Shown: piece after piece, positions 33,250-55,136 of the stretch | Layout: the number at the start of each line of letters is the position of its first letter | How positions within the stretch are numbered: position 1 is the first letter of the stretch | Assembly (NCBI RefSeq): GCF_001186125.1 | Contig: NW_014040545.1 | Location: forward strand, 20,504-75,639 | Direction: 5' to 3' | Length of the DNA stretch: 55,136 nucleotides | Source: Sphaeroforma arctica JP610 | Lineage: Eukaryota | Made by a program: the position numbers and the translations under genes | The notes under the pieces: generated by a model | Databases searched by the model: none | Told to the model about the DNA's origin: nothing | Seen by the model: only the letters and a program-made list of their open reading frames with translations

Positions 33250-34296
33250 TTACGCCTCGCTGCCGAATATGTTGTTGATTTGCTGTGTAACCCGAATGAA
33301 TGTTGTGCGCTTGGGCAGCTCCTTAAGATTACTCGCACCCACATATGTACAGGTCGATCTCAAACCTCCCAATATATCCAAGCAAGTTCCATTTAAAGGC
33401 CCACGATACGGTACCTGCACAGTCTTTCCCTCACTCGCACGGTACTCGGCTACACCACCACTGTGCTTTGTCATAGCCGTCTGACTACTCATGCCGTAGA
33501 AGATTTTGACGCGCTTGCCGTTGTCGAGTGTCTTCTCCTCACCACCAGACTCATCGTGTCCTGCAAGCATTCCTCCCAGCATCACAAAGTCAGCACCACC
33601 GCCGAAGGCCTTGGCCACGTCTCCGGGACATACGCATCCTCCATCGGACACGATGTGACCACCAAGACCGTGTGCTGCATCTGCACACTCAATTACAGCG
33701 CTCAGCTGGGGGTATCCGACACCTGTCTTTTTGCGGGTGGTACACACTGACCCGGGTCCAATGCCCACCTTCACTATATCAGCACCCGAGAGTATAAGCT
33801 CCTCGGTCATCTCACCTGTAACTACGTTACCGGCGATGATGGTGTGCTTGGGGTATTGGCCACGCACATCACGTACAAACTCTACAAAGCCCTCAGAGTA
33901 ACCGTTGGCGACATCCAGGCAGATAAAGGTGATCTCGGGAATTTTCGAGAGAACGGCTTTCAGCTTTTCTAAGTCTGCAGCGCTACTGCCAGAACTTACA
34001 GCGCAGTGGGGCAAGGCCTCGGGGTTGTTCTTGGCGAAATCAACCCACTCCTCTACACTGTAATGCTTGTGCACACATGTGAACATCTGCTTATTGCCCA
34101 ACACAGCGGCTGACTCGAATGTGCCCACTGTGTCCATATTAGCTGCCATAACGGGCACACCCGTGTATGTAAGTCCAGAGGTTCGGAACTTGTAGGTCTT
34201 GGCAAGTGTTACCTCTGACCGACTGCGCAGAGTAGATCGTTTAGGACGGAACAACACATCCTTAAAATCGAGCTTCAGCTCTTCTTCGATCCGCAT
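33250..34296 (-). CDS. GMPR: GMP reductase (GMPR/GuaC type 1), single coding exon, 348 aa
   Basis: [43 protein letters not shown], catalytic loop [26 protein letters not shown]; no CBS subdomain. Confidence 0.97.
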
Positions 34297-35464
34297 AGTG
34301 TACTAAGCGGAGTCGAATCTGACTAAATAACAAACAAACACCACTATTGGGCTGTTGGTATGTTAAACTATGCAAGACTGAGCTTTGCTTCTCGTCGGCC
34401 GATAGTATTTGCACGCAGTAAAAATAAAATAAATAACAAACTTCATGAAGAGAAGACGAGCAGTATTATGAATTCTGAAGAAAAAAAGCGATCTACCTCG
34501 TGTGGAGAAGTCCAGACTCCAACAGTAGGCTCCAGGGCCCAGGGCCCCAGGCTCCAGCCTCCAGACTCTGATCAGAGTCCAGAGTTTCAGTCACCAGTGA
34601 GGCAGCAGGCTGTCCAGCAGTGACACTGACCGGAGTGACCATACAGAATCGAGTCCTGATCACAAATCATCACCCCCACGGTTCCAGACTCAAAAGTCCC
34701 AGTCCCAGTGTCCCCACTGACCCACTGTTTTGAATGTTGGGTTTTTGTTTTGGCACGGAGTTCGGATTTCGGACTTCAGGTCTTCAGAGTACGGTGCATA
34801 TCGAATATTTTCAGAGACTGGACAAGTGGACATTGGACTGTCTAATTTTCAGAAGGCTGTGTTGATATCGGTGATCGACTCATCGGAGAGCAATTAAAAA
34901 TGTCCGACCCGAGAGCGACCGGTCCCTGAATCTGCTGAAAAGTTTCGACTCTGGATGTATTTAGTCTCTCGTCTGTCTCGAACTCTCCGTCTCGCGTCTA
35001 CTCTCTCTCTCAGAGACAGAACGAGAGATAGAGATCGAGAGAGAGATAGTAGAGACACTCTCCTAATAGAGAGAGAGAGAGAGAGGGTGGGGGGGGCCGG
35101 AGGCACTGGGTCTAGGAGTCTGGGACTCTCTCTAGTCTCTTCTAGTAGAGTGTAAATATGGACTCGAGAGGGACATAAAAAATCTGCATAAGAAGTCTGC
35201 ATTATTATCAGGGCAATACTGGCATGCATATTAATGATATTATATTTTATATATTTTGTAACAGACTGTTTTCGCAGGCAGCAATGAAGCATCGGATCAT
35301 TTGTATATATATGTGGCATATTGCTCATCACGCTCTGAGAATTATTATTTTGCCTAAACTACTATTGTACGTAGGACAACAACATACTGCTATAATTGAA
35401 TACTTCCCTGGGGGCCCAGACGAGACCCAGGTTAAGTAGTTCCGCAACTTACAGACATACCAAG

Positions 35465-36566: not shown

Positions 36567-37870
36567 TTATTTTTTCTTCTTCTTCGGTCTTGGGGACCTG
36601 GGCGAATTCCCCCGTGAACGTTTGTTGACTGTTTCCGAATTAGTTGATTTGCCGTGTTCGGACCTCCGTTTACTGGCATCGTTGGTGTACTTCCTCCTCT
36701 CGGACGGGCCCAGCAAGGCCCATTCATGAAGTGCTAGCTGTGGTTACAAATCGAAGATAGCGTAAACATTACATAAGACTAGGCCAAGGTAATTTTGCGT
36801 TCGCAAACAATCATACACCGGCCGAATAAGCCAGACAACGCTCACGACAAATAAAAGATATGATTGTCTGCTCATTACTATAAATTTGTCCATATTTGTC
36901 TGCTCATTACTATAAATTTGTCCATATTTGTCTGCGCATATCTCTCTGCCTGAAATTAAACACTACACCTATCATATTAAAGTGTGACGCCTTCGCAATC
37001 ATTTGTAGCTAATAAGAACAATTTTGATCCCGTTCATCATGTTCAGCTTGTCAACAGACTATAGAGTGATATATGCTTTTCCTTCTATAAGGACTAACAT
37101 TGCATATATACACATCCACTTTGCAAAGCACATACCAATTGTATCTCTTCGTGGCTCTGTCCGGGGTTTGCGGCCATCAGAGCGCTTTTGAAAATTTGGT
37201 ACTCGTTCTGAGGTTTGATGCTATAACTCCTCTCTTGTTGATTATTCCCTGTCCGCGACGCACTACGCGAATTATTCCTGCTACTCGTCTGCTGTGTTCC
37301 TGTGAGTGTATTCTTATCTTTCCCTGTGTCGCCATTAACCATAGCACTTCCCCCGGCACTCCCACGGTTGCCACCATCTGATTCATCGCTAGATTTTGCC
37401 CCAGACACAGTTAAGGTGATAATCGGACCCGCCCCCAGTGGTGCTTCTTCGCTGCTGGCGTTCTGACGTGCTCTAGCATTGTCGTTACTCCTTTTAACTA
37501 TCTCTTCCTCAGCCCGCTTTTGTACTATTGCCCGTACGGGCGAGCTGACGGCGTCCCCGGGTTCTAAGTTATGTTTGAGTGCATTATACGCGCTTACTAA
37601 TTCGCTCTTGGCCGATAGAAAACCTAGTATTTCGTTGTTTTTGTTAGTGCGCTCTTCGATTTTAGACGGATCTAGCTGCGTACAGCTGGGGCAGTAAATC
37701 GTTTTATCCTGCGCTTCTTCTTCATCCATCAAGAAATACTTGGACTTCTTGACCCCTAGGCACTTAGCGTGCATCCAGATGGGGCAGATTTCACAACCCA
37801 ACATCAAAGGTGTCGCCTGTCTATATGTACGCGTACATATGGGGCAGAAATAAGTTTGTGATTCAGACAT
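36567..37870 (-). CDS. Two-exon PHD-finger + HMG-box-like chromatin protein (~301 aa)
   Basis: Exon 1 (37870-37136) has a C4HC3 PHD (CPIC...CEIC...HAKC...CPSC) and ends KPQNEYQIFKSALMAANPGQSHEEIQL|GTATGT. Exon 2 (36737-36567) follows a CAG acceptor in phase 0 and reads LALHEWALLGPSERRKYTNDA...RPKKKKK*. Confidence 0.8.
36864..36935. repeat. Perfect 32-bp tandem duplication in the intron of the PHD-HMG gene
   Basis: TTGTCTGCTCATTACTATAAATTTGTCCATAT twice plus a partial third copy. Confidence 0.95.
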
Positions 37871-39183
37871 TGTGCCTGAGTGAGTCGTCAGAAACAAAAT
37901 CGAAGAAGAAGAATAATATGTTGAAAAGCAAACTACATACTACGACAATATTCCCTCTGTGGTGTGTTTTGCACGCGATTCGAATGTTTTTAAGAGTTAT
38001 TCCATTTTTTATGACTTATAAAACTACAAAATGGAACAAGGAAGTCAGAAAATTAGGGTTTTGTCGCATTTATTTATTTATTTAAAAATTATTTAAGTCG
38101 TCGAGCTGAGTTGTTGCTCACCCCTTTTATGATTTGAAATTTTTTTTTAAACATATCTCGTATCTTTGAAAATACGGCGCGTGTCCTACGACAATACACA
38201 CGCAGAGATTGAATGCTCAACCCTCTTGTACATACCATTATAACCACTATAATTTAATCCATAAAGGTATCTTATGGCGTCTTATGGCGTAGCAAAAGCA
38301 GCACAGCAGCGTAAACGACGGGTGAAAGGAATGCGGGCCGCTTTATTTGCAGGAGGGCAATAAATGCTCTCAGAGGATCCCCAGCAAGCCTCTACCGCAG
38401 TACCAAGCACCAATGCACAGCTGACAAAAACCGTAGATAATAGACCACGCCACGAATTGCAGGATAATTGTGGCACAAAGATAGCCGCTTGTACCGCTGA
38501 CCATAGAAAAGTATGTGAACGTGGTATTGGCAGCAAGCGATTGTGTACCAATTGAGTTATCATCGCAGTATTTTACTTGTTATGTAATAATTATTGTTCG
38601 GTAATATCGTTGTGTATTTTTTTAGACGTCGTGTCTCTGCAATTTGTTGAAGCTACTTGTTCTGTTACCGAAACACAGACAAGGTGCCAATACACGTACT
38701 ATTCCTCAAGGTAGAGAGATACAAGGCACTTATATACTATGGACAGCAAAACAAGGTAGACGCAATCATTAAAGCAGATAAACTACCTGATGGAAGTAAC
38801 GGTCACTTATCAGATATAAAGCAAAATGCGTTCTACTCACTTACAGAGGCATCGCAATTCACGTCCGTACGCGGTTGTCGATCACTACTATTCGCCGCAT
38901 TAACATTATCGTACCAAAATTCTGGTTCGTCGTCTACATCTATATTAGGTCTTCAAGAGCGGCGGCCAAGGTACAGGCAGACCGAAGGTACAGAGAGTGT
39001 AAGATATACAACTTTTATACGGCCACTCACGGCCAAACACTGAACACCACTACCTCTAATCCCAAGCGTAACAAATTAAACAATGGTAACCGTAGGAGCT
39101 CGGCCCGTATCGGTTTTTCCTTGGATTCAGATGGGGCGGAGCCATCTTTGTTGGCTAATTAGTAACGCTGCAAATATCAGATA

Positions 39184-39396: not shown

Positions 39397-39880
39397 TCAA
39401 AAAGCGAGAAAGGGTATATGTAACTCACTATATCTGCCACGAAAATAGTGAGCGGGTGTAGTTCTTATAACCGGATCAGCACACTCGTTCATCTGTGTTT
39501 GTACCCACTTAAGGTGGTACGGCCAATCATCTGCATCATTCGTTAATGCAGTACGCAAGAAGAACTTAAGTCTTCTACGGCGCGTTTCATTCGCGCCCTG
39601 CGTTTGCGGTTTATATGGCACACCTCTCTTATGGCATATGCTTGATACGAGTACTAGCGATTCCATTACGTCATCGCAGAACTCACTACAGTTATCAGTA
39701 CACATAATACCTGGCCACCCGTGGTCAGCAAAGACTTGGCAACATAATTCTTCCACGGTCTGCGTATTCTTATATGGTTTTGCGTCAGCCAATCAAGAAT
39801 GTTTTTTATCATTCTGCTCCTCCAGAATAAAGGGTGTTGAGAATCCACTTGCGTGGTCTCTAAGTTTGTACAAATGCTGT
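39397..39880 (-). pseudogene. DDE (rve) integrase core of element 1, truncated
   Basis: RDHASGFS...HGWPGIMCTDNCSEF...PYKPQTQGANE...WPYHLKWVQTQMN...TTPAHYFRGR; internal stop; no H2C2 finger found. Confidence 0.85.
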
Positions 39881-39989
39881 GTTGCATTTGAACTGATTAA
39901 CGTTCAAATTGGTAGAGAGTGAGATCTCTGATTCTTTGACCTTGTTAAGAAAGGTCTCAGAAGGGATCCATTTGGTTGTTCCAATGGGG

Positions 39990-40390
39990 TCTATACGACA
40001 TATTATAGTATGCCTCCAGGGCGTCTTCGGGACGGCTCGGGTACCATGATATAGGAAAGTATCTACTTCCCTATATAAATATATTGGCTCGCATTGTAGC
40101 ATGCTTATTAATTTATTGAGCCACATATATTTACTCCGTAATGGGCAGCACAACGAGATGGTAGCTTTGTGTATATGAACATAATTTAATAGATGGGCAA
40201 TTAACTGCCATAGTGGATTAGCCCACGCATTATTTTTGGAGATGTCTATTTGAAAGGCGTCTCCCAAAGAATGATTTAAAGCTTTGTAATTCGATAGTTG
40301 TGCATTATGATGTGCAGCAAACATATCTATGGTATGTGGCCCAAATATATTTTGAGCCAGTTCAAACCACCTGGGATTACCTTTCCAATC
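39990..40390 (-). CDS. Dam-like DNA amino-(N6-adenine) methyltransferase domain in frame with the RNase H C-terminus of element 1
   Basis: DWKGNPRWF...FGPHTIDMFAAHHNAQL...DAF...WANPLWQLI...L.CP...W matches the pattern of DIRS-type MT domains (SAM-binding DxFA; catalytic NPPW/F-like motif). Confidence 0.82.
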
Positions 40391-41906
40391 AGTGGTTAGC
40401 AACTCATGTACAGATTTATTTAAGTCCGGTACAAAGCGTGAAAACACAACCGGTAAATGGTTATGTATTCCTGGCAGATGCTTTATATCAAAATGAAACT
40501 TTGATATTGTATCATGCCAGCGACTCAATAATTGTGAGTCGGGTTTAATCTCTTTCATGTATTGAAGAGATTTCTAATCACACATCAGCGGAAATGCTGT
40601 TCCGTATAAGTAATCTCGGAAGTGTGTTAGAGCTGCCACTATGGCTAATAGCTCTTGTTTAACGGTTGGATAATTCAACTGTGAAGCATTCATTGCTCGA
40701 CTAAAGAATTGTATATATCTAGGTTTGTTATCTATAACCTGATAAAATACTCCTCCTAAGGCTAAGTCGGAGGCGTCTGGCACGCCATCGACTGGTCCTT
40801 GTACAACAGGGGCTTGTTGGAATGCGTGCTCGAGCGCTTTAAATGCGTCATCACACTCTTTAGTCCACAAGTCTCTTAGTTTGCCTTTATGACATCTTAA
40901 GTGTCCAAAAGGTTCAAGGTAATCAGCCAAGTGTTGTACTTCATCTGAAAAGAAAGTTTACAAACCCACACATGCTGTTCACATCTCTTCCTGTAGTTGG
41001 TGTTCGCCAATCTAATAGGGTTTCCACCTTACCGGGGTCGATTTTAATACCTTCCCCATGTATACAGTAGCCTAAGAGCTGTATTTCGCTCATAGCGAAG
41101 TGACATTTCTTCTCGTTAATCTTGAATTTTTGTTCGTTGAATCTTAAGGACTCGTCTGACTAATGTGGCATGTTCGCCCTTAGTCATAGAAAAGATGACT
41201 ATGTCATCCATATAGACTTGCATGTTAGGCATGTCTGCAAACATTTCCTCCATTACTTGTTGGAAGAATTGCTGGTAACCCGAAAGGTGCACCTCTGAAC
41301 CTGTATTGTCTACCTTTCCACGTAAATCTAAAGTATTTACTATATGGTTCATATATCTGCATTTGATGGTATCCTTGTGTAAGGTCTATAGTTGTAAATA
41401 CTGCAGCACCTTCCATCCTTCGCAGTAGCTCTTTAATACAAGGTAGGTGAAAGCTATGAGTTGACATTAATTTATTTATTGGACTCATATCTAAACATAC
41501 TCTGACTTTCTTAAACGATCCGTCAGAGTTATGTTGGTCTACGGCTAGCAGTGCCAAGTTAACTGGCGTCTGTTGATAGTTAACTTCTATCACTCCATCT
41601 GCTAACCATTTCTCAACTTGTTCTTTTACCACAGCCTCGTGTCTCCAGGATACATAGTTCCTTGAGGGACACTTTAACTGTGTAAAGTCCACCTTGGTTA
41701 AGTCAAGGCTGACATACCCGTCGTTAAAACGGAATTTTGCCTAATCTATGACCTTTATCTTCTTATTATCTAGAATCAGATCCATGATTTTTCTCGCAAA
41801 GCCAGGTATTAATGCCTTGACTGTGTCTGACGGGGGCTTATATGGATTCAGACAGTTATCGTCTGGCTGATCCTTTAATGGATCTATGTTATTTGATAAA
41901 CCAGTT

Positions 41907-42444
41907 NNNNNNNNNNNNNNNNNNNNNNNNNNNNNNNNNNNNNNNNNNNNNNNNNNNNNNNNNNNNNNNNNNNNNNNNNNNNNNNNNNNNNNNNNNNNNN
42001 NNNNNNNNNNNNNNNNNNNNNNNNNNNNNNNNNNNNNNNNNNNNNNNNNNNNNNNNNNNNNNNNNNNNNNNNNNNNNNNNNNNNNNNNNNNNNNNNNNNN
42101 NNNNNNNNNNNNNNNNNNNNNNNNNNNNNNNNNNNNNNNNNNNNNNNNNNNNNNNNNNNNNNNNNNNNNNNNNNNNNNNNNNNNNNNNNNNNNNNNNNNN
42201 NNNNNNNNNNNNNNNNNNNNNNNNNNNNNNNNNNNNNNNNNNNNNNNNNNNNNNNNNNNNNNNNNNNNNNNNNNNNNNNNNNNNNNNNNNNNNNNNNNNN
42301 NNNNNNNNNNNNNNNNNNNNNNNNNNNNNNNNNNNNNNNNNNNNNNNNNNNNNNNNNNNNNNNNNNNNNNNNNNNNNNNNNNNNNNNNNNNNNNNNNNNN
42401 NNNNNNNNNNNNNNNNNNNNNNNNNNNNNNNNNNNNNNNNNNNN
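41907..42444. other. Assembly gap inside element 1 (protease to RT region)
   Basis: Run of N. Confidence 1.
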
Positions 42445-42722
42445 TGGGTAGTGATATTCCTATCATTGGCCAGGGAGATTTTAACATCTGTGGCCATGGT
42501 ATCACACTTAGAAGTTTTGTCATCAGCTAAAATAAGGTGAGTTGTTTATGTTCTCCTTTCGATATCTTTCATTAATGCAAAGCGATCGGATATACATGAA
42601 ATTTCAGAACCAGGATCAATCAACGCAAGGATTTTATTTCCATTGTAATATACAGGTATTATTACACGCTCATTCAAAAAGTCGTTGTACTGTCTGTGTA
42701 ACGATTGTACCTGGTAGTACCT

Positions 42723-44934
42723 TCACTCCAACTTAATGTTGGGCTTTTTGTCACAAGACATAGTGTGATAGCCATTGGTCTTCTCACACTTGTCACACTT
42801 AGTAAGAAAGTGTGTGCAGGTGGGTGCATGCCTGCCATTCCAATAACCGTTAGGGGTCAATTGGTATATGTCATACCCACACTGTGCGTCGGCACATTTC
42901 TTAATCTCTTTAAATGGAGGTTCCTTGTCCTTCGCCTCCGCGCGTGCCCGTTTATTGGGTCGCGTGGATAGTGTGGAGTCGCGAGCACGTGTATGTTGGG
43001 GTCTCTCGTTTGAGGTCTGCCTGGATACGTATCCACGATCGGTTTGCTCCCGCGGTTTCTTAACAGTCGCTTTTCACTTCGATGTTACTCGGTGTGTGGG
43101 GAAAAGAGTGGATACAGTATCATAAAACTATTCTCATGTAAGTCGGGATAGATGAAACTTTGTTTCATGTCCCTTGTCTCGAGCCTCAGTCGCGTGTTTA
43201 CGTCGCAACTCGGTGTACAGACTCTCACGGTCGTTATTCCCTATGTTCTTACAGAACATGTGCATAATCAGGAACTCGTTCCATCGCTGCGCCTTGTCCT
43301 TTGTTATATCTGGACGTTTCAGGTCAGCATCTAGCTTCAGAATATAACTCTGAATGGGCGTGTTCTCAACTGGTTCAGTTAAAATTGAACTCAGTCCTGG
43401 GCTACGCATGTCATTACTTAACAAGGATGTAACCGACCAACACACAGCTGGCCAGTCACGACAAGTGTCTAGCTCATGCTGGTGTCGCTGCAGGATTAAG
43501 TAACTTGTTCCTGTAGGGTCAAACGTCTGCATTAAAGCGGAAATCCATTGCTGGGGAACGATATCATTTGTCTCCAGCATGACCGTAAACGCATTGCGCG
43601 TACGGCTTAGCGTGTCGAGGTCATGGTTGTTTATAAACTCGACCTGCTTACTGTTGGCATCCCAGTTTGACTTAAGTCGACTGATCTGTCGCTTGTACTT
43701 CTGGTTATCCCTGTGGTCTTGTCCACGTTGGGCCTGAAGTAGCTGATCGATGCGCTTTTGCTTAATCGCGATCACATTAGCAAAATATGATACATCATCA
43801 GCACGGTACGCATCATGGGCGATTTCCATTTTAATGGTGTAATCGTCGACCGATTTGTTAAGTTTGGTCACCTCGTCAGAGTGGAAATCCTCTGCGGGCT
43901 GATGTAATGCTGTGCGATCGAAACGATTAAATTCGACTTTGTTAACACGTTTACGGGGGTGTTTATTACCCCTTGTAAAATCCATGGTCGAGGCTTTTCG
44001 GTGCTCTGTCCCTCGGATAGTAGTTGGTAATATAATCTTGGGAGATTCCTACGTCTGGATAACATACCCAGTCTTAACTGGTTTCCGACGATTGGCATCC
44101 CAGTTGGGTAAAGGTGGCGGAGTATTTTTACCTGCCTCTGGGTCTATAGGCCGGGTGTCAGAACAGGCGAGTAATAAGCCTGAAGTTCTGGTGGTAGTAC
44201 CTCGTAAGGTATAGATATGCTAAGCACATCTGGCTCCTCTGCCACAGGTGTAGCGCTCGAGCCTTTACGCTCTTCGGGCGTAATTGCCTGTCAACGTTCT
44301 GTCCACTTCTGTAGGGCTTTAGTAATGCCCGGAGAAACATGCTCGCGTAAAAGCTGTGTATGTTTTCCTGATCTATACAATCGATCTACATGTTCAACAG
44401 TCAAATCTTTCATAAGGGTGGCTAACTGATTCTTAAAATCAGTGCTTTCAGTAATTAACTTACTTCTGCGCGTTGGTTTAGTGGTCTCGGATGTAGATTC
44501 GGGTTTGCCACTTGAGCTTGCCTCCTCTTCTGGTTCCATCATAGGTTCCTCCTGAGATTTGTCTTCGTCCCCTATAATTGGGGACTCCCTTATAATTGGG
44601 GACTTTTCCTTCTGAGTTTCGTCAGAAGAATTGGTGTCTCACTCCTTGGCTTCGTAGATGCAAGCTTTGAAATTGAGGCAATAGTTGGCCCTCGGGCTCT
44701 GTCTGTGGGAGTAGTCTCCTTGATCGGAGTGGCTACATCCTTATCTGAAGCATAGTCCTGTTGACTACTATTGTCGGAGACAAGTGCTTCGGCTACGGTG
44801 CGGTTAAACGCATCGGCAGCGGCGGCGGTTGCTTCTGCGGCGGCAGTAGCTGCGGCGGCGCCAGCGGCTTCTCTCTCTATCTTCTTCTTTTCAGCTCTAC
44901 GCTTCTTAGAAGGAGTATTGTCTTTCTTGGTCAT
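42723..44934 (-). pseudogene. gag of element 1, fragmented
   Basis: Successive minus-strand ORFs 44934-44590, 44542-44291 and 43985-43134, then KKCADAQC...HAPTC and CDKCEKTNGYHTMSC knuckles, ending at TGA 42723-42725. Confidence 0.75.
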
Positions 44935-45674
44935 AATCTTAACTTATGACTGCTAGCTGATCTTTTAAGGACTAGCTTGGACAAGAAAAATTATGTGGTA
45001 GTTTATCTCCTTTTACGCTTAAGTAATCTAAGTAATTAATACCCTTGCTAACTTTAAAATGTGTAAGATTCGGTCTATCAAGGCGATATTAATGCCTTAG
45101 AGTAATTAAACGCGTAGGTAAAATCTAAGTATCGTGAAAATTCAAAGTAAATAAACGAAACGAGACTTTTAGTAAAGTTAGGTAGGCCTCGTGAAAACAG
45201 CAATACTCTGAGGGATTGTGAGGCTGAGACATTGCCTATATATAATCCTCTCAGTACTGTTTTCGCCGAAGGGATTTTATTTAGTGTTTCGTTGTCGCTC
45301 TATTAGAAACTATGGTACGTTTCGTTGGGGCGAATCAGAGAGACTCATAAAATCCTATCTTTAGAAAAATAAAATAAAAAAATAAAATACTCTTGATGTC
45401 CTTAGTTGTTGTATTAACCAATAACTTGTCACTTATCAAGAATTACCGACTTAGCCTTTATCAGACTGGCACATCTGGTTGGCTGATCGGAGGATCAACT
45501 AGGTAACGTTAATAGTCCCTAGAGACCTATATTCGGTTGAACCGTCTCGCTACCGAAGTATTCAGATATAAATAAATTTGGAAAGTAAACATAGTTCTAT
45601 TAATAGAACTAGACCAAATCTTATGTTTGGTATTTTACTAGGGCCTTTTAATGGCCTTGTCCAAATATCTTATA

Positions 45675-45826
45675 TGTAAAATGGAAAAGGTATTAATTAG
45701 TAAAACCGTTAAAAACCATTTAGGAAACTTAAGTTCCTCGTACTATTAAGAGTACGTTTATAGTTTACGTACTGCTTACGAGTACGTTTATAACATAGAG
45801 TCTAATGTGGAGGCCCGGCTATTACA
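45675..45826 (-). repeat. 5' LTR of element 1
   Basis: Direct repeat of 39184-39335 with TG...CA termini. Confidence 0.9.
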
Positions 45827-46719
45827 GTCAAATGTCTTCGTAATTTTTTCCGTATACTTGTTGGTAATGTGATGGAGTGCCGGTAGGGTAGTGTCCTGTA
45901 ACTGGTTCAACCGCTAAGTCCAGGGTCATTAATGATCGCCTGGGCTTCAGGTAGCGCATCAGTAGAGTTGGCAAACGGAAGTGGCGACGACCAAAATACA
46001 CACTGAAAGATACACTCTTAAGTTGGCGAACATCGTGAAAAGAAGTCGTTCATCCCACCTCAAAGGCACTGCTTCACAACACTGTCTAACAGACCGGTTG
46101 GGGTCAGTACAGCGGTGACACCTTATGCAGTATATCCACTTAATGGACTATGAGTTTCACTATACTGTCAGTGAATTTGGTGCTTGTGTCTGTCTGGATC
46201 AGTCGCGGGAAACTATGTTTGCCAAAAAAAAATTATATCGAACGTCTGTACCGTCGTGTCTTTTATCTTATCAGGTGTCGCTCTAGAGAGTGAGTAACCT
46301 GTAGCGATATCTAACGCGTAAAGGATATATTTGTTCACCTCTGTGACTCGAGTGGCACAGGAATGTAATCGACCCCTATGTGATCCCATGGGTAGCGCGC
46401 GCCAATGCTGATCATCGGATGGAAACTTTTACGCAGCGTGTTCTGACCAAGGCATGTACCACATTGTGGCTTGACTTCAGTCGCTAATTCGAGGGCGCCA
46501 AGCCACACATGTCCGTTATGTCGGAGTTGTTCATGAGTGAGCTGTGTGCGACGCAGTTGCTCTTCTGGTGTCGCTTGGGCAAATGTGGGTTAGCCCTCTG
46601 TTGCGGCCATGGCCACCGATATATTGCGAGCAGTGTCTGTACACATTGTGTAGATGATGCGACGAGGCTCTGCATACCCAAGTCGCTGCGAGAACGCCGA
46701 ACTTATCTTATCCCTTTTG

Positions 46720-47110
46720 GGTTGACCTACTTTTACTACTACAGTATGGCCCCATAATGTCTTGCCACATGAGTACTTGGCATACTTCAAAAAGGTATGT
46801 GGGGTACGAGGCACTATCACCGGTTCTGAATGCAATAACTGTTCGAATAAATCAAACGACGGAGCTCTCGGTAACCAAGGCAGACAGACTGTTGCCCTTA
46901 CCCCGTCTGATTTGACCTTCCGAAGCATCTCATGTATTTTCTCACGTGTAGGATTCAACCGGTTACCTGGGACCAGTCATATGCGAACGCTCCTTCCCTG
47001 ACATTCTTCGTCCAAAACCGATGTAGTTAAGCATTGGTTAGGTCTGTCCGCAAAGATGTTGATGTTTTTCGGTACGAAATGTTGTTGAGCTTGTTCAAAG
47101 TAGCTGGGAG
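46720..47110 (-). pseudogene. Degenerate Dam-like methyltransferase domain of element 2
   Basis: SPSYFEQAQQHFVPKNINIFADRPN and LNPTREKIHEMLRKVKSDGVRATVCLPWLPRAPSFDLFEQLLHSEPVIVPRTPHTFLKYAKYSCGKTLWGHTVVVKV are collinear with the element 1 MTase. Confidence 0.75.
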
Positions 47111-48546
47111 AAACTGCAAACAGCAATCTATGTACAGTTGCAACTTCAAGTTCATCTCTCTCCGCTGTACTCTCGTGGACTCTGCACAACATGCCTGGCA
47201 ACACATTCTTCTCCCCTGGTATGTGTGATATTGTGAGGTGAAACGGTGCAATAATGTGGTGCCACCTCGCATAGGATTAAGTTTGAGTTGTGTGTTCATA
47301 TACACCAGGGCCTTGTGGTATGTGAAGTCTGCAAAACGTTGTCCGTCGAGGTAATCCCTGGCATTACACTAAAGTCGGTAGCTCTGTTGCTGTAACGTAG
47401 TTCTGTTGCGCATGGCTCACCGTCGTGCTGAAGAACACTAAGTATTGCTTCTTCCCGTTGACCCATTGGAACAATGCTCCTCCCAAACCGTGTTCGCTTG
47501 CATCGGTTTCTAAGTTTAATGGTATATCATCTACAGGGAAGTGCAATGCGACTGCATTGATCACTGCGCTCTTTATTGCTTGCCACGCGTGTGCATGCCC
47601 CGATCAATTCATTTGCCTTCAGTTTACAGCATTCTCGTAAAGGTGTCCATGTGTTCGCGAAGTTAGGAAGGTGCTCATAAAAGTAGTTCGCCAATCCTAA
47701 GGCAAAAGCGATATCCTTGTGCCGTAGTGGGGTAGGTCAGTCGAGTTATTCGCCCTCGAGACGACATCATGCGATGTCGGCAATATGCATTCGCCTCGAA
47801 GTCTAGTGCTAAACGGTGGCGTGCGTCGGTAGGCTCAGTGGTGTTGGGTGCTTGACGGCGTGGGATTGGTTCGAGGAGCTCGTCAAGTTCTGTAAGGTCG
47901 ATCGGTGCGAGAGACGATAAAATACCGCCTATGTAAAGGTCCAGCCCCTTCAACATGTCTGGTCTCACTATGATAGCTATTACCGTAGGTAGGCTCATAA
48001 GTCCGAGTAAACTGTCCATCACCTGTGTTCCGTATCGAATGGGCAACACTTCCGTCGTCCCCAGTCGAGGAGTTCGTACCGCCTTGTCAGCTGGATAGAT
48101 GAATGAACCAGGTGGTGCTGGAGCTATTGGGCGGCCAATACAAAAGGTCTTCGGATATCTGTGAGACGCAACTTCTGTTTGCTCCTGTGTCTATCAAGGC
48201 TATGAACGTGCGTTCATTGACTTGCACTTGAATATAGGCTCGGCTATCACATGACAGTAATGGATCCTTTATTGCCATGACTGCATCGATAGTGTTTACA
48301 AACGTCAAGCTCATACCTGACTCAGACACCCTCACTTCTCATTCACGCTCGGCGACTGGCTCCCATCCCCCATGGTTGTTCTCTGGCGCCGGTGCCTCGT
48401 TGCTATAATCATCCGTGAGTATCGCGTTGATGTGTGCGTCGGTAGCTTTGAGTAGAGGTGCGAAGTCGTCGTCCTGTGTTATCGTGTTGTCCTGTAGTTC
48501 GGAGATGTGTCAGTTGGCAGAAAAATCTTTGTCTGGGTTGTTGTTC

Positions 48547-48918
48547 TGCCCTTGTCTTGAGGTAAGGTTGATGCAGGTTGCTGTGCGGCCTGTGTATCTC
48601 TCTGCGGAAGGTTCTGGTCACATTGGCGTGCACGGCTGTCGTTACCCTCTGGATGTGTTGCTCGACAATGATGAGAGCGTGGGATGTGTCGTGTACCCGG
48701 TGGTGCCTGTGATCGACAACCGACACATATATTACTGTCCTTGTCTTGAGGTAAAGGTTGATGCAGGTTGCTGTGTGGGCTGTGTATCTCTCTGCTGAAG
48801 GTTCTGGTTGTATTGGCGTGCACGACTGTCGTTACCCCCTGGATGTGTTGCTCGACAATGATGAGAGCGTGGGATGTGTCGTGTACCCGGTGGTGCCTGT
48901 GATCGACAGCCGACACAT
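48547..48918 (-). repeat. ~190-bp tandem duplication in element 2 gag, each unit encoding a Cys/His knuckle-like motif
   Basis: 48547-48728 vs 48736-48918 are near-identical; unit contains CVGCRSQAPPGTRHIPRSHHC. Confidence 0.9.
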
Positions 48919-49926
48919 GTAGTAGTTGTCGTTGCTTGGAGTCGTTGTGCCCAGTTCTGCGTCTGCCTCTGTGTAGCACCGTCTGAAGGTTCGGGTGACT
49001 GTGTGTATAGTCGCGGGCTCCGTTGGTCGTCACGTCCCTATTATCACGGTTTTGGAGTCGAGCTGTTGTACGTTGCTGGGCATCCTGTACGTCGGGACTC
49101 GATAGTTGCAGTAGCTCGTGTGTCTCCATTAATTGCCACTTCAGATGTAGTTGGAGAGTCCGTTCGTACGTGCGACCTCTAACAACAGTACGATGCAGTG
49201 GTTCAACAGGTTTTGTTGAACGTCTGTGTCAGATTGACAACGTCCATGTACCCGTCTATGGTTTTCCCTGAGCGGAGTCATTTGTTCCATGATGAGAGTG
49301 TGCATGTTCCTACTGTGGCCTTTGGCTAGCTTGCGAAATGAGGGGTAGACTGTTGCCTGCGTCTCATTCAAACACGCCTGCTTTATTTGCAACGATGGGA
49401 TTCACATCTTCAAACGTTCAGAGTTGTCTCGTATGTAGTCTAGTGTTGATTTCTCTGTTTTGAAGTGAGATAATACTTCGCGGAACCATGTAAGGCTCCA
49501 ACTCTCGTCCAGGCCGGCGATTTGTGCATACTTGAAGGCTTATAGAAGTGTATCTCTCGTGTTGCGTTCCATATTATCATGCAGGTGATATCTGTTTGAT
49601 GATCAATTGATCCAGGTGTGATGGCACTGGACGTATCTCGACTAGCTTGGACTCGAGTGTAGCCCGGAGTGTTGTTTCTATTGTTCCCCGGAGAGCATTA
49701 GCTCGAGCCATGTTGTCATATTTGTTGCTTGACATAGTCGAAGTATGCGTACATGGAGTGATTGACGACTCTTCTCGGTACTCTCTGGTGTGAGTAGAGG
49801 TGCGGTGGTTTCCTTCCCTTGCTGCTTGTAAGTGTGCACATAATCACTAGTCGCTTGAAAGACTTCCTCTGCTGATGCTTGCGAAAGTTCGTGTTCAATC
49901 GGTCGTGCACGTTCTTCAGAGCTTTC

Positions 49927-50238
49927 TTTAGCATCTAGGAACCAGATTATCAAAAAGACAATCCCAATTCCAAAATCTAGAATCATCAAATTTTGAGTTT
50001 TGGAATTAGGACTGCAATATTCCTGGTATTAAAGTCATCAAAAATATTAGCGGTAGAACCGGTAAGCTATACCGGGACACCGCGTGTGAGAGAAACACTC
50101 AAATAGAAAACCTGAGCCTAGTGAATTAGAACACACAAATAAAGACTCAGTTCGAGTTTCTCAGACTATGGACTTTTCCTAGCTGAGATAACCGAATTTC
50201 TTTGGCTCGTACCTTTCAGCTACTCTCCATACTCTAAT
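49927..50238 (+). repeat. 5' LTR of element 3 (termini mutated)
   Basis: Aligns over ~310 bp with 53828-54160. Confidence 0.85.
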
Positions 50239-53200
50239 TTTTTTTTACAATATCATTACTTAGATAAGTCAAGTAACTTACACTTAACAAAGTAAAATAG
50301 AAGTGGAGTATACTACCAAAGTATCAAAGAAACTTTATATTGAACAAGCTTTATTCCAAAGAAGGGATACTAGAAGAAGCCTCAACAAGGAACCAAGGAA
50401 GCGACGTGTTCCACCGGACAGACGTGTTCCCACCAGCTAGCAGGTATTGGTAGCAAAGGACCCAACAAGAAGTCAGTAGAGGAAGCAAAGACCAAGCCAC
50501 TACTCACTAGCATAAACCAAGGTAGAACAAACCCAGGTAACAGTATCGTGTTGAGGCGTGACGTTCTATATAGCCAAGGTGAACATATAGAGAGAAGAAC
50601 AAATAAGTGTCAAATTTAAGGCACACGCTAGTGAAAATTGATAAGCTGTCACAGTGATTTGTTTATCAATGTTGGGGATTTTTGGGATATTTCAAATAAG
50701 AAAACATCCCGACGTTAGGACTCCCAAGAAGAACATCACTACACTTCAGCAGGATACCTCTAGACAAGTAGCAATAGCACAGTACATGGTAAAGAGACCA
50801 ATTAACAAACTGTGGCTCAATTAGAGCAGTCCAATGAGACATGCAAGCGTCAGAAACGAACATCATCATGGACAGATAGATCATTTCAACGTGCACATAA
50901 CCAATAACACAATAAGAGGGTCAGCATTAGGCTGGACACACCAATATAACACTATGCAACAGCTATATGGAATGGCTAGTATCAACTAGACAATTCACAA
51001 GAAGCATCTTTAAGCCTCAAGTGATATCTGAGATCAGAGGATCCTTATTGTTATAGACAAGAAGTATCATTTTAGTCACAAGTAGTTTCTAAGATGAAAA
51101 GATTCTTAATAGCTAAGCATACGAGAGCGACACTCAATCACAGAGTAAAGCCAGACCAGACCATACAAGATCACACTTGCAATCAGACAAGACCATACTT
51201 GTCTAAATCAGACAAGGACGACGAGATCACACACGATCGTACTAATTGACTAGATCACTAGTACACACATCAAACCCAAACAAAGGTGACTACACACAAG
51301 GCTTAGCATACACACCACAACACTGCGGGTGAGACCAGAAGGCTAATGCACACAACCAGAACAAGGAGTATGTGTGAAATTAAGGATTTAGACCTGAAAG
51401 CACACCATCAGGACATGCGAGAACGAAATTGAACTCAAGACAAGACATAACATCGAGTGCGTCTCAAAATAGCACACAACCACACACCGAAGACCTGATC
51501 AAGTATAATTAGTACCCAAGAAAAAAACGATCAAGAAAGGAAGGAAGTGATGTACACATGCGAAATGAGATCTAGCAAAACATATCAATAAACACAAAGT
51601 ATATTTTATGGAACAATACTGCCCACAAAGGTTGATAAAACAACACACGAACACACCCCATCAACCTGATCGAGTACAATTAGTACTCAAATAAAGATCA
51701 AGACATGGCAACGATGAGGTACTCATGTTGAATGAGTTCGATCAGATCACACTCGTAAAGACATAAAAGACATAACACAAACACTAGCACTGGCTGCACA
51801 AGAGGAACAAGGTCCCAACGCAGATCACTGAGCAGAAATAGAACACTCGGCCAAGTGCATGTCAGAACATAATCGCAAGTAGCAAAGTTCACACGATACA
51901 CACGACACAAAGTGATCAGATCACACGCTACCAACACACATGCGCACATCAGCACGATATACACGATATAAAGTGATCAGATGATACGCTATCAAACCAC
52001 AGGCGCATAGTAGTCGGATACGAAGATATAAATATCAATAAGATTGCAGGATCGCGTATCATCGCAAAAGAGACTGAAATCTCGCGTCAAAGCGATGACT
52101 AAGCAGTAACAGACTCTATAATTACAACAACACAGATGTGAACACATTTGTGCCAAGCATCTGAAAAATAAAGAATCTCCTGTGTAGCAACACACACACG
52201 CAACACAGGAACACGATCAACAGGCGCTCCTAGGACTGAACATCACGAAAAAGTCAAGACGACTGAGATCAACAGTGAATCCTGCACAGCAGAACAACTT
52301 GCTACAGGACGAGAACATTACACGAGTCCAGAACATAAAGGTGGTCGTAAATATCAAGTAAGTTCGGTACAACACAGAACATCTCAGATCGCAGTGACGC
52401 CATCACAGTTCGGTACAGAACCGAACTTCCTCGGTTCCGTCAACAGGACCGAACTTTCCCGGTGACGTCACTAAGACCGAACAACTCATTATGATCACAC
52501 ATGAGAAAGGGCGGAAGCAAACATGATTGACCTGGCTGACCGGCTCAATGTAAAAACTGATGAAGAAACGTTGTTAATAAATGCAAGTAATATAAGTTAC
52601 CAACCTTTATCCTTACTTCCTGCACCACGAGACCAACGATTACACATTGACAAACAGATTAATGGCAGTACATAACGCTCGTGCATGGACAAAAGTATAG
52701 TAGCTGAACTATACCTCTTAGTCAGATCGCAACCGGAATATATACAATTAGCACAACGCATGGGTCAACCCAAGAATGTGACATTAATTATGGAGGAAGG
52801 AAAACCTCTCAGTGTTTTGAAGTGTTGGACCTCCCTAACAAGAAGGCACCAAAACTTCTCGGTATGGACACCCTACCATACATAGGTATATACATAGCAG
52901 GATTAATCAATACATTTATACCAACAGATGCAAAATGGGAATCACTCCTCAGGCCACATGAAGAGGACCCTGAGCATGAACAAGAAAGTTTTAGAGAGTC
53001 ACTTGTAGAACTCTTAGACATAAATGCGAACATACCTCCTGACATACATGGCAACCTACCAGGCTCTACAGTCACAGTACCTGCAAATAAAACTAATGTC
53101 AGACAAATGAGGCACGCCAAAGTCAGCTTTGTACCTCACAAGTATATTCCGCAAACGGACGAGAATGTACGGAAGTGACTTACAGATGAACACATATGCA

Positions 53201-53827
53201 AACGAAGTACACCAACAACAGTGAATCTACCTTTGTTATCAACAGGTGAGAGCGACCATCCAGGTCTCCCCAAAAGAGTTAGAACATGTTTAGACTTACG
53301 CGTGATCAATTACCAATACAAACAAGATAAGTTTGTGCTACCAAAAAAAAGAAGAAGTCCTGCACAACCTACAAGGAGCACCATTCTTTTCCGAGTTGGA
53401 TCTCACAGGAAGGTTCCACCATTGTCGGAACATATATTTGTTTAACGAAGTAACTTTATTTTCATAATACATACTGGCTATATAGTATAATAATTACCAT
53501 GTGCCTTTTTAAGATATTATTAAAATTATTCAGCTAAAATATTCGCCGAAATATATTTTGGGCTTAAAGGGTTTTTAGGGTTTGAGTCTTATAAGTTCGT
53601 CTCAACACTCTCCTGAATTGGAAGCGAAAGGACAGAGTATATACATAGTTGCATATATGTTGGGTTGGTAAAGAACTCCCGTCATAGTATAAATTTGGTT
53701 GATAGGTAATATGTAAGAATATATAATGGTGGCACGTTTTTCATCTTATGCCTCCTAAGGGGTAAGTTTTTCCCTTTACAAAACACTTTCTACTTCTACG
53801 CAGGCTATGAAGCACAAAGTTGGGGGC

Positions 53828-54160
53828 TGTAGCATCTAGGGACCAGATTATCAAAAAGCCAATCCCAACCCCAAAACCTCAGAATTGTCAAATATTGAGT
53901 TCTGGAATTAGGATTGAAATATTTCTGATATTAGAGTCATCAGAAATATTAGCGGTAGAACCGGTAAACTATACCGGGACATCGCGTGAGAGAGAAACAC
54001 TGAAGTAGAAAACCTGAGTCTAGTGAATTAGAAAACACAAATAAAGACTCAGTTCGGTTCTCTCAGACTTTGGACTTTTCCTAGCTGAGATAACCGTACT
54101 TGAGAAGAGGACTATTATATCCTTTGACTCCTCCCTTTCAGCTACTCTCCATACTCTACA
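53828..54160 (+). repeat. 3' LTR of element 3
   Basis: TGTAGCATC...ACTCTACA termini; AATAAA inside; preceded by a G-rich PPT-like tract. Confidence 0.88.
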
Positions 54161-54786
54161 TTTTCCCCCATGTCGATTTTGCTTCGCTAAAACCTGCTTG
54201 CGCGCACAATCCTGGAGTGGTTGGCCATCATCCAAAGACAGCTGACCCTCCGATACTGGTGATTCATACCCGATTCCACGATGTGGCCGAGTGGGGCCGT
54301 GGATTTGACACCGGACGCCCACGCTTTCGCGAGCTATTATTCGTCTCTGTAGTAGGTATGGGCCGCACTGGAGAAGTACGTTGCAGACGTTGTTCGTATT
54401 TGTCAGGCAGGGGCCTCTGTTGCGCCATCAACTGTGTCAGTTTCTGTGCAGAATACTGGTCAAGCACGTTACCTTTGTTGTTGCGTCGATGATGACGTCT
54501 GCGCTTGCCTGATGGGAGGCATGGTTGACTGTTGCTTGGTTTGCTGTTTCCACCTGGGTAGGTGCTTGCCGTATTGGAGACTGCTGGTCTGAAAATGACT
54601 GCTAGTCTGAGGACGATGAGCCGGAATTCTCCAAAGACGAACGAAGACAGACCGTTACTAGCTACATTTTTACCAGTAACAATATGATCGTGATCCGCAC
54701 GTAGGTCGGAGCACTGCCTAATGCGACGTGATTCTCATGGAGGTTAGGCTCGGCTCCGTGTGCTCGTGGCGTCTACTTACGGTCAA

Positions 54787-55135
54787 GGAACCCTTGATTC
54801 ACCTGATTATGTTCGTCCGGATCCTTCTCAGGTTGCTGGTTGATGTGGTCCGGATTGGGCTGGCGACGCTTAGTGCCGCGCCGGTCGATGTCGTCTTCCT
54901 TGCGGCGCTCAGGGTTAACGTGCTGCTGTCGACGACTTTGTCGGGAGTCAGACATGATGCAGAAAGTTGATTTCAATTGGAGTCTTAGAAATGTGTGAGA
55001 TCGAACTATAGGCGGACTTAAAATATATCGCCCCACCACATACACACCCTTTTCAAACCTAGAGCTCGATCAACGAATAAACCGGAACCCTTGATTCGCC
55101 TGATTATGTTCGTCCGGATCTTTCTCAGGTTGCTG
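54787..55135. repeat. Direct repeat with ~297-bp offset; second copy runs off the window
   Basis: GGAACCCTTGATTC(A/G)CCTGATTATGTTCGTCCGGATC(C/T)TTCTCAGGTTGCTG at 54787 and 55084. Confidence 0.85.
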
Positions 55136-55136
55136 A

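What the first reader, a model, noticed from the sequence alone, without database searches (positions are those of the whole stretch)
39860..40558. Gypsy LTR retrotransposon carrying a DIRS-type DNA adenine methyltransferase between RNase H and a DDE integrase
Seen: one stop-free 232-aa frame runs from the RNase H tail (RWHDTISKFHFDIKHLPGIHNH) directly into DWKGNPRWF-FGPHTIDMFA-NAQL-DAF-WANPLW, and an rve integrase core follows, all inside direct TG...CA LTRs. Established: Dam-like MT domains after RNase H are a feature of DIRS tyrosine-recombinase retroelements; canonical Gypsy pol is PR-RT-RH-INT. Inference: this is a chimeric RT-RH-MT-INT Gypsy lineage that could methylate its own cDNA or insertion site, for self-marking or to mimic host active chromatin. 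I do not know a description of this architecture, but I cannot search the literature. The catalytic motif reads NPLW (40208-40219), one C>T change from NPPW.
Basis: partly seen in the sequence, partly recalled or inferred. Interest (0 to 1): 0.9.

Follow-up and report, generated by a model that had tools for sequence, protein, structure and literature searches.

The report
Dead Gypsy retrotransposon with adenine methyltransferase
This is a broken copy of a Gypsy-type jumping gene that carries a phage-like adenine methyltransferase domain between its RNase H and integrase, a real design that a 2026 preprint has already described, and whose working relatives likely use the domain to methylate their own copies.

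Summary
A 232-codon frame (40558-39863, minus strand) runs from the RNase H tail into a Dam-like domain with NPLW at 40208-40219. Two relatives, 60-62% identical, carry RT-RH-MT-integrase in one ORF (one also the protease), with NPPW and CPPW. The domain folds as an amino-methyltransferase (pLDDT 91). Its best predicted-structure matches are phage N6-adenine methylases; its best solved-structure match is the RNA cap methylase PCIF1. RT and RNase H are Gypsy-type, not DIRS-type, and RT and MT trees recover the same clade. Between the two relatives, MT is as conserved (67%) as RT (62%). This copy is dead: stops, frameshifts and two deletions remove the integrase zinc finger, first catalytic Asp and tail. 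The 5' LTR ends GA, not CA, and no target-site duplication was found. bioRxiv 10.64898/2026.05.21.726589 (May 2026) already describes such 'DAM-LTRs' and proposes the same self-marking model. Small additions: two more elements related to this group lie in the window; the clade has a divergent chromodomain below Pfam's cut-off; and the PCIF1 match leaves RNA open as the substrate.

The parts
45660..45826 (-). 5' LTR (167 bp, TG...GA)
42723..44943 (-). decayed gag-like region (several broken ORFs; Cys/His-rich end at 42723-43073); assigned by position, no convincing Pfam hit
42447..42707 (-). aspartic protease remnant (DPG motif; stop at 42548), followed by an assembly gap of N at 41907-42444
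   Evidence: tblastn to P0002, 38% identity, E 4e-12
40950..41905 (-). reverse transcriptase (YMDD), one stop (41743) and three frameshifts (about 41270, 41145, 40960)
40436..40957 (-). Gypsy-type RNase H, 5-aa deletion, in-frame stop at 40576
   Evidence: RT_RNaseH_2 E 3e-24
39980..40393 (-). Dam/PCIF1-like N6-adenine methyltransferase domain; motif I-like TIDMFA; motif IV NPLW at 40208-40219
39397..39792 (-). integrase core remnant (second Asp and Glu kept; zinc finger, first Asp and C-terminal part deleted)
   Evidence: 63-68% identity to P0001/P0002
39169..39335 (-). 3' LTR (167 bp, TG...CA), preceded by a G-rich, polypurine-tract-like stretch

Best explanation
This is a dead copy of a Ty3/Gypsy LTR retrotransposon whose pol gene carries a DIRS-type adenine methyltransferase between RNase H and integrase; in intact relatives the domain is likely packaged with the RT-RNase H and would add N6-methyladenine to the element's own reverse-transcription product. 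Shown: the architecture, the fold, the Gypsy-type RT and RNase H, co-inheritance of MT with RT, conservation of the MT at the level of RT, and the lesions in this copy. Inferred: an ancestor captured only the MT from a DIRS-like element; the MT stays attached to RT-RH (about 10 residues separate them in this subfamily, whereas a long variable linker separates MT from integrase); it methylates cDNA or the RNA-DNA hybrid inside the particle; and, in the preprint's model, host AMT1 then maintains the mark so that new insertions sit in active chromatin. Confidence is about 0.95 in the identity and about 0.5 in this mechanism.
For: Single-ORF relatives P0001 (RT-RH-Dam-rve) and P0002 (PR-RT-RH-Dam-rve) are 60-62% identical to the window ORF. 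P0001 vs P0002 identity is MT 67%, RT 62%, RH 72%, integrase core 59%, linker 23%. NPP(W/F/Y) is present in 113 of 151 aligned database proteins, 2 of which lack the region, and in 16 of the 17 other members of the window's MT clade. D, F, A of the motif I-like stretch and PP are at least 90% conserved in 73 sequences. The model has pLDDT 91; top viral-library matches are phage N6-adenine methyltransferases, E 2e-8 to 2e-5, TM about 0.7. RT tree: integrase-bearing vs DIRS-like split 100/99, window in a 10-row clade at 100/98. MT tree: the same 9 relatives plus 8 partial proteins, 95/86. RNase H scores against P0001: 46-250 bits for 12 of 12 integrase-bearing proteins, at most 23 for 34 DIRS-like ones. 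The preprint reports more 6mA and more expression on DAM-LTRs than on other LTRs in two ichthyosporeans.
Against: No activity has been shown for any member; the preprint's expression in Dam-deficient E. coli gave no 6mA increase. The closest relative P0002 has Cys in place of the catalytic Asn while the rest of its domain stays conserved. Iyer et al. (PMC4738411) judged DIRS MT domains likely inactive and derived from PCIF1. The best solved-structure match is the RNA cap methylase PCIF1 (Z 10.5), above M.TaqI and T4Dam (Z 8.0) and EcoDam (Z 7.7). The element shows no ApT enrichment (0.95 vs 0.97-1.07 in flanking DNA). The motif counts are biased because the hits were picked by similarity to the query. 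The host, and whether it has AMT1, is unknown.
Confidence: 0.5

Rival explanations
1. The domain is a non-catalytic or dispensably catalytic nucleic-acid/SAM-binding module attached to RT-RH, kept as a structural or template-binding aid.
For: CPPW in P0002; F, H, C, A or L replaces the Asn in 24 of 151 relatives; negative E. coli assay; Iyer et al. propose inactivity. Other scan notes report motif-less versions in other genomes (not checked here).
Against: 16 of 17 other clade members keep NPP(W/F), and the motif I-like residues are at least 90% conserved.
Confidence: 0.25
2. The domain is a PCIF1-like RNA methyltransferase that adds m6A/m6Am to the element's own transcript or cap, affecting its stability, packaging or escape from host RNA surveillance.
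For: PCIF1 is the top solved-structure match in two independent searches: Foldseek E 1.9e-4 and VIA Z 10.5, with rRNA adenine methylases next. The profile also hits PCIF1 weakly over the motif I-like stretch, E 0.52. This would explain a negative DNA assay.
Against: Predicted phage DNA N6-adenine methylases match better (E about 1e-8) than viral PCIF1-like proteins (E about 1e-4). No solved structure of that phage family appeared among the listed matches, so PCIF1 may rank first by default (inference). The 150-aa model covers only the catalytic core of the 482-aa PCIF1 chain.
Confidence: 0.18
3. A DIRS element nested in a Gypsy element, or an assembly chimera, places the MT next to an unrelated integrase.
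For: The integrase remnant is in another frame, and the locus has an N gap and nested insertions.
Against: Single-ORF relatives carry all domains at 58-69% identity to each window segment; RT and RH are Gypsy-type.
Confidence: 0.02

Closest known systems
DAM-LTR retrotransposons (Fernandez-Moreno et al., bioRxiv 10.64898/2026.05.21.726589, May 2026)
   Same: Ty3/Gypsy-like element with a PF05869-type Dam domain and an NPP motif. [quoted passage not shown]
   Different: I could not place this element in one of the five named lineages: the supplements are closed and the host is unknown. This clade has a divergent chromodomain-like tail. This copy is dead.
DIRS1-group tyrosine-recombinase retroelements (PMC3783388)
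   Same: Related MT domain in the same position, right after RNase H.
   Different: This element has a protease, a DDE integrase, direct LTRs, and Gypsy-type RT and RNase H; DIRS lack protease and DDE integrase and have inverted terminal repeats.
PCIF1/CAPAM cap-specific adenosine N6-methyltransferase (PDB 6irw, 6irx)
   Same: Closest solved fold (Z 10.5, rmsd 3.0 over 134 residues).
   Different: 12-16% identity; only the catalytic core is shared.
Phage N6-adenine methyltransferases (PF05869 / TIGR01712)
   Same: Best predicted-structure matches (TM 0.67-0.77); same compact motif order.
   Different: 14-21% identity; here embedded in a retroelement polyprotein; activity not shown.

Membership tests
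Ty3/Gypsy LTR retrotransposon | pol order PR-RT-RH-INT with a DDE integrase | tested here: met
   Order kept in the window and in one ORF in P0002; integrase partly deleted in this copy
Ty3/Gypsy LTR retrotransposon | Gypsy-type RT and RNase H | tested here: met
   Best PDB match of P0001 is Ty3 Gag-Pol, E 3e-71; RT tree (no named reference elements in it); RH scores
Ty3/Gypsy LTR retrotransposon | direct LTRs | tested here: met
   167-bp direct repeats, 158 of 167 positions identical
Ty3/Gypsy LTR retrotransposon | TG...CA ends, target-site duplication, primer-binding site | tested here: inconclusive
   3' LTR TG...CA, 5' LTR TG...GA; no duplication seen; PBS not identified; no second copy or host tRNA set available
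DAM-LTR (2026 preprint) | PF05869 Dam domain within a non-DIRS LTR element | tested here: met
   P0001 E 7.4e-6, passes the preprint's 1e-5 threshold; P0003-P0013 above the Pfam cut-off; window ORF E 0.0018
DAM-LTR (2026 preprint) | NPP catalytic triplet | tested here: met
   16 of 17 other clade members; this decayed copy reads NPL and P0002 reads CPP
Ichthyosporean DAM-LTR lineage | ichthyosporean host and placement in that clade | not testable with these tools
Ichthyosporean DAM-LTR lineage | no chromodomain | tested here: inconclusive
   No Pfam Chromo above cut-off in 10 clade proteins, sub-threshold in 3 of 10; tail profile matches true chromodomains at 96.6%
DAM-LTR (2026 preprint) | 6mA enrichment on insertions; host encodes AMT1 | not testable with these tools
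   No reads or genome
DIRS1 group | no protease or DDE integrase; DIRS-type RT and RNase H; inverted terminal repeats | tested here: not met

The most novel reading that the evidence does not exclude
The 'Dam' of these Gypsy elements is a PCIF1-like RNA (cap or internal m6A) methyltransferase acting on the element's own genome RNA, paired with an overlooked divergent chromodomain, so the DAM-LTR model has the wrong substrate and the 'chromodomain-less' lineage is in fact a chromovirus-like one.
Probability: 0.15. Interest if true: 0.7.

Novelty: new member of a known kind. Interest (0 to 1): 0.25.

Why it matters
If the domain is active, these elements write an activating base mark on themselves, the reverse of the usual host-silences-transposon picture. 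That idea is already in the 2026 preprint and remains biochemically unproven. This locus adds no direct test because it is dead. Its intact relatives (NPPW in P0001, natural CPPW in P0002) make a ready pair for a substrate assay, and the PCIF1 match says RNA should be in that assay.

Tried and rejected
No host genome was held, so copy number, dN/dS and AMT1 could not be checked. No sequencing runs and no cluster names were obtained. No DNA loci of relatives were found in metagenome contigs or viral contigs, and a near-length protein search found none among 95 candidates. The single-sequence fold failed, pLDDT 36; it was redone with a 73-sequence alignment. PHROGs gave no methyltransferase hit; NCBIfam gave TIGR01712 only at E 0.063. 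The ESM Atlas gave one Dam-linked cluster at 0.90, with Dam on 11% of members, a lead only; later Atlas calls did not complete. No tRNA gene is in the window; the bacterial promoter scan was uninformative. Dinucleotide counts show no ApT enrichment and no strong CpG loss. Host placement failed: the neighbouring GMP reductase matches human GMPR best among solved structures, which does not discriminate. An ichthyosporean host is my guess from recall and the preprint's species list, about 60%, untested. Nested DIRS and assembly chimera were rejected (see rivals). PMC9940879 passages were irrelevant.

Full report
Observation. Upstream in the same frame lies RNase H (RT_RNaseH_2, E 3e-24), cut off only by a stop at 40576. 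Direct repeats of 167 bp at 45826-45660 and 39335-39169 differ at 9 positions. Both begin TG; only the 3' one ends CA; no target-site duplication is visible. Pfam Dam hits the ORF at E 0.0018, below its cut-off, and rve does not hit the integrase remnant, so the window alone is only suggestive.

Relatives settle the architecture. A search among longer proteins returned 2 of 222 candidates, P0001 (1376 aa) and P0002 (1400 aa), 60-62% identical. Both have RT, RNase H, Dam (E 7.4e-6 and 7.6e-5) and rve in that order in one ORF, and P0002 also has the protease. Each window segment matches them at 58-69%, so the integrase belongs to the same element. A full HMMER search with the MT gave 381 proteins at E 0.001 or better; the best 150 were listed. 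I scanned 30 of these 150 with Pfam. The 11 closest after P0001 all pass the Dam cut-off. Of these 11, 7 have rve or H2C2 downstream, P0010 has an integrase by phmmer, and 3 end before it.

Fold. With a 73-sequence alignment the domain models at pLDDT 91, pTM 0.86. Among predicted viral structures the best named matches are phage DNA N6-adenine methyltransferases (E 2e-8 to 2e-5, TM 0.67-0.77), with viral PCIF1-like proteins next (E about 1e-4). Among solved structures PCIF1/CAPAM is first by Foldseek (E 1.9e-4) and by VIA-align over 48,161 chains (Z 10.5, rmsd 3.0, 134 aligned), ahead of DIMT1/KsgA/Erm (Z 8-8.9), M.TaqI and T4Dam (8.0). That the motif labels (I, IV) and their roles apply here is from my own knowledge of amino-methyltransferases.

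Gypsy, not DIRS. P0001's best solved-structure sequence match is Ty3 Gag-Pol (E 3e-71). The RT tree had 50 rows: 47 of 151 proteins with a usable RT, two added MT-before-RT proteins, and one unjoined window frame filling 48% of the columns. It separates 34 integrase-less RT-RH-MT ORFs from all integrase-bearing ones (100/99). I labelled those 34 DIRS-like by architecture; their recombinases were not checked. The window sits with P0001 and P0002 (100/98) in a 10-row clade (100/98). The MT tree (60 rows) recovers the same nine relatives plus eight partial proteins (95/86). Other integrase-bearing MTs fall elsewhere, two of them beside a DIRS-like ORF (97/88), consistent with several captures. 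RNase H is also Gypsy-type, so only the MT was acquired. Both trees are unrooted and contain no named references, so the direction of transfer is taken from the preprint, not shown here.

Selection and motif. Between P0001 and P0002 the MT is 67% identical, against RT 62%, RNase H 72%, integrase core 59% and linker 23%: the domain is maintained. NPP(W/F/Y) is found in 113 of 151 aligned proteins (2 lack the region) and in 16 of the 17 other clade members; P0002 has CPPW. NPLW occurs only in the window copy and is best read as decay. The hit list is biased towards motif-keeping sequences.

This copy is dead. It has stops at 42548, 41743, 40576, 39862 and 39399, three frameshifts in RT and a 5-residue deletion in RNase H. 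About 520 nt are missing between MT and integrase (linker, HHCC finger, first Asp), and the integrase C-terminal part is gone.

Literature. bioRxiv 10.64898/2026.05.21.726589 was found; I read the whole main text but not its figures or supplements, which would settle the lineage assignment. It reports Dam domains in Ty3/Gypsy-like elements from at least four independent captures, including a clade with DAM between RT and integrase and an ichthyosporean lineage without chromodomain. It also reports a conserved NPP triplet, 9 of 13 host species with AMT1, more 6mA and expression on these elements in two ichthyosporeans, a negative E. coli assay, and the model of methylating RNA-DNA intermediates. 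It calls this the first identification in non-DIRS LTR elements. My searches showed no earlier sequence-level description; one 2019 opinion piece loosely lumps DAM and DCM over Gypsy and DIRS (PMC6338049, passages). PMC3783388 (passages) gives the DIRS definition. PMC4738411 (passages) derives the DIRS MT from PCIF1 and calls it likely inactive. PMC5560861 (passages) and PMC9940879 (passages) added nothing decisive; one search was seen as a listing only. The scan's own notes list 23 similar findings in at least 3 genomes; these are unchecked and are not evidence.

Mechanism. Most likely the intact element makes a Pol in which the MT stays on RT-RH. About 10 residues separate RH and MT in P0001 and P0002 (33-89 in the other 10 clade members measured), while a long variable linker precedes the integrase. 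Inside the particle it would methylate adenines on the cDNA or hybrid, priming host maintenance after integration. Every step after the architecture is inference. A non-catalytic role (0.25) and an RNA substrate (0.18) remain open.

Small additions. The C-terminal tails of 10 clade proteins align to four Pfam-called chromodomains (hhalign 96.6%, E 6e-10); the tail profile finds 4 of 4 of them at E 3e-8 to 4e-5 among 151 proteins. Pfam itself gives only sub-threshold Chromo hits in 3 of the 10. If this clade is the preprint's ichthyosporean lineage, 'lacks chromodomains' may reflect the threshold. The window also holds two more decayed elements related to this group. The host is an unidentified eukaryote.

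Verdict: real, correctly read, but a dead member of a kind described in May 2026. Interest 0.25.

Noticed in passing
window 45950-49926 (-), probable 5' part at 54161-55136: A second, more decayed element with PR-(RT largely deleted)-RH-MT-zinc finger-integrase order, 28-30% identical to P0001/P0002; its MT lies at about 46720-47120. Its placement in the clade was not tested with a tree.
   Followed up: partly
window 49927-54160 (+): A third element with 84%-identical LTRs and a near-perfect 5-bp target-site duplication (4 of 5), apparently inserted into the second element. Its PR-RT is 68% identical to P0013, an intact RH-Dam-INT polyprotein, but RH, MT and integrase were not found in this copy.
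   Followed up: partly
C-terminal tails of P0001, P0002, P0004, P0005, P0008, P0010, P0011, P0013, P0028, P0103: Divergent chromodomain-like region below Pfam's cut-off; most divergent in P0001/P0002 and deleted in the window copy.
   Followed up: partly
P0016 and P0044: Polyproteins with an exo-endo-phosphatase (EEP) nuclease and a Dam domain before a long-branch RT, followed by RNase H and an integrase zinc finger: a different architecture.
   Followed up: no
P0135: 776-aa protein with dUTPase directly followed by a Dam-like domain.
   Followed up: no
P0024: Starts as the end of a P0002-like MT and linker, then runs into what looks like a different RT, possibly a nested insertion.
   Followed up: no
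window 33250-34302 (-): Single-ORF GMP reductase (TIGR01305, E 8e-187) in a host whose other genes look spliced.
   Followed up: partly
window 37094-37939 (-): 281-aa ORF with an N-terminal PHD finger (E 1e-6) and low-complexity tail, 1.2 kb beyond the 3' LTR; no link to the element shown.
   Followed up: no
window 41907-42444: Assembly gap of 538 N where the relatives need only about 85 nt, so the gap size is probably overestimated.
   Followed up: no
window 1-1147 (+): Roughly 66-bp tandem repeats encoding an Ala/Glu-rich coiled-coil-like protein with apparent frameshifts; no Pfam hit.
   Followed up: no
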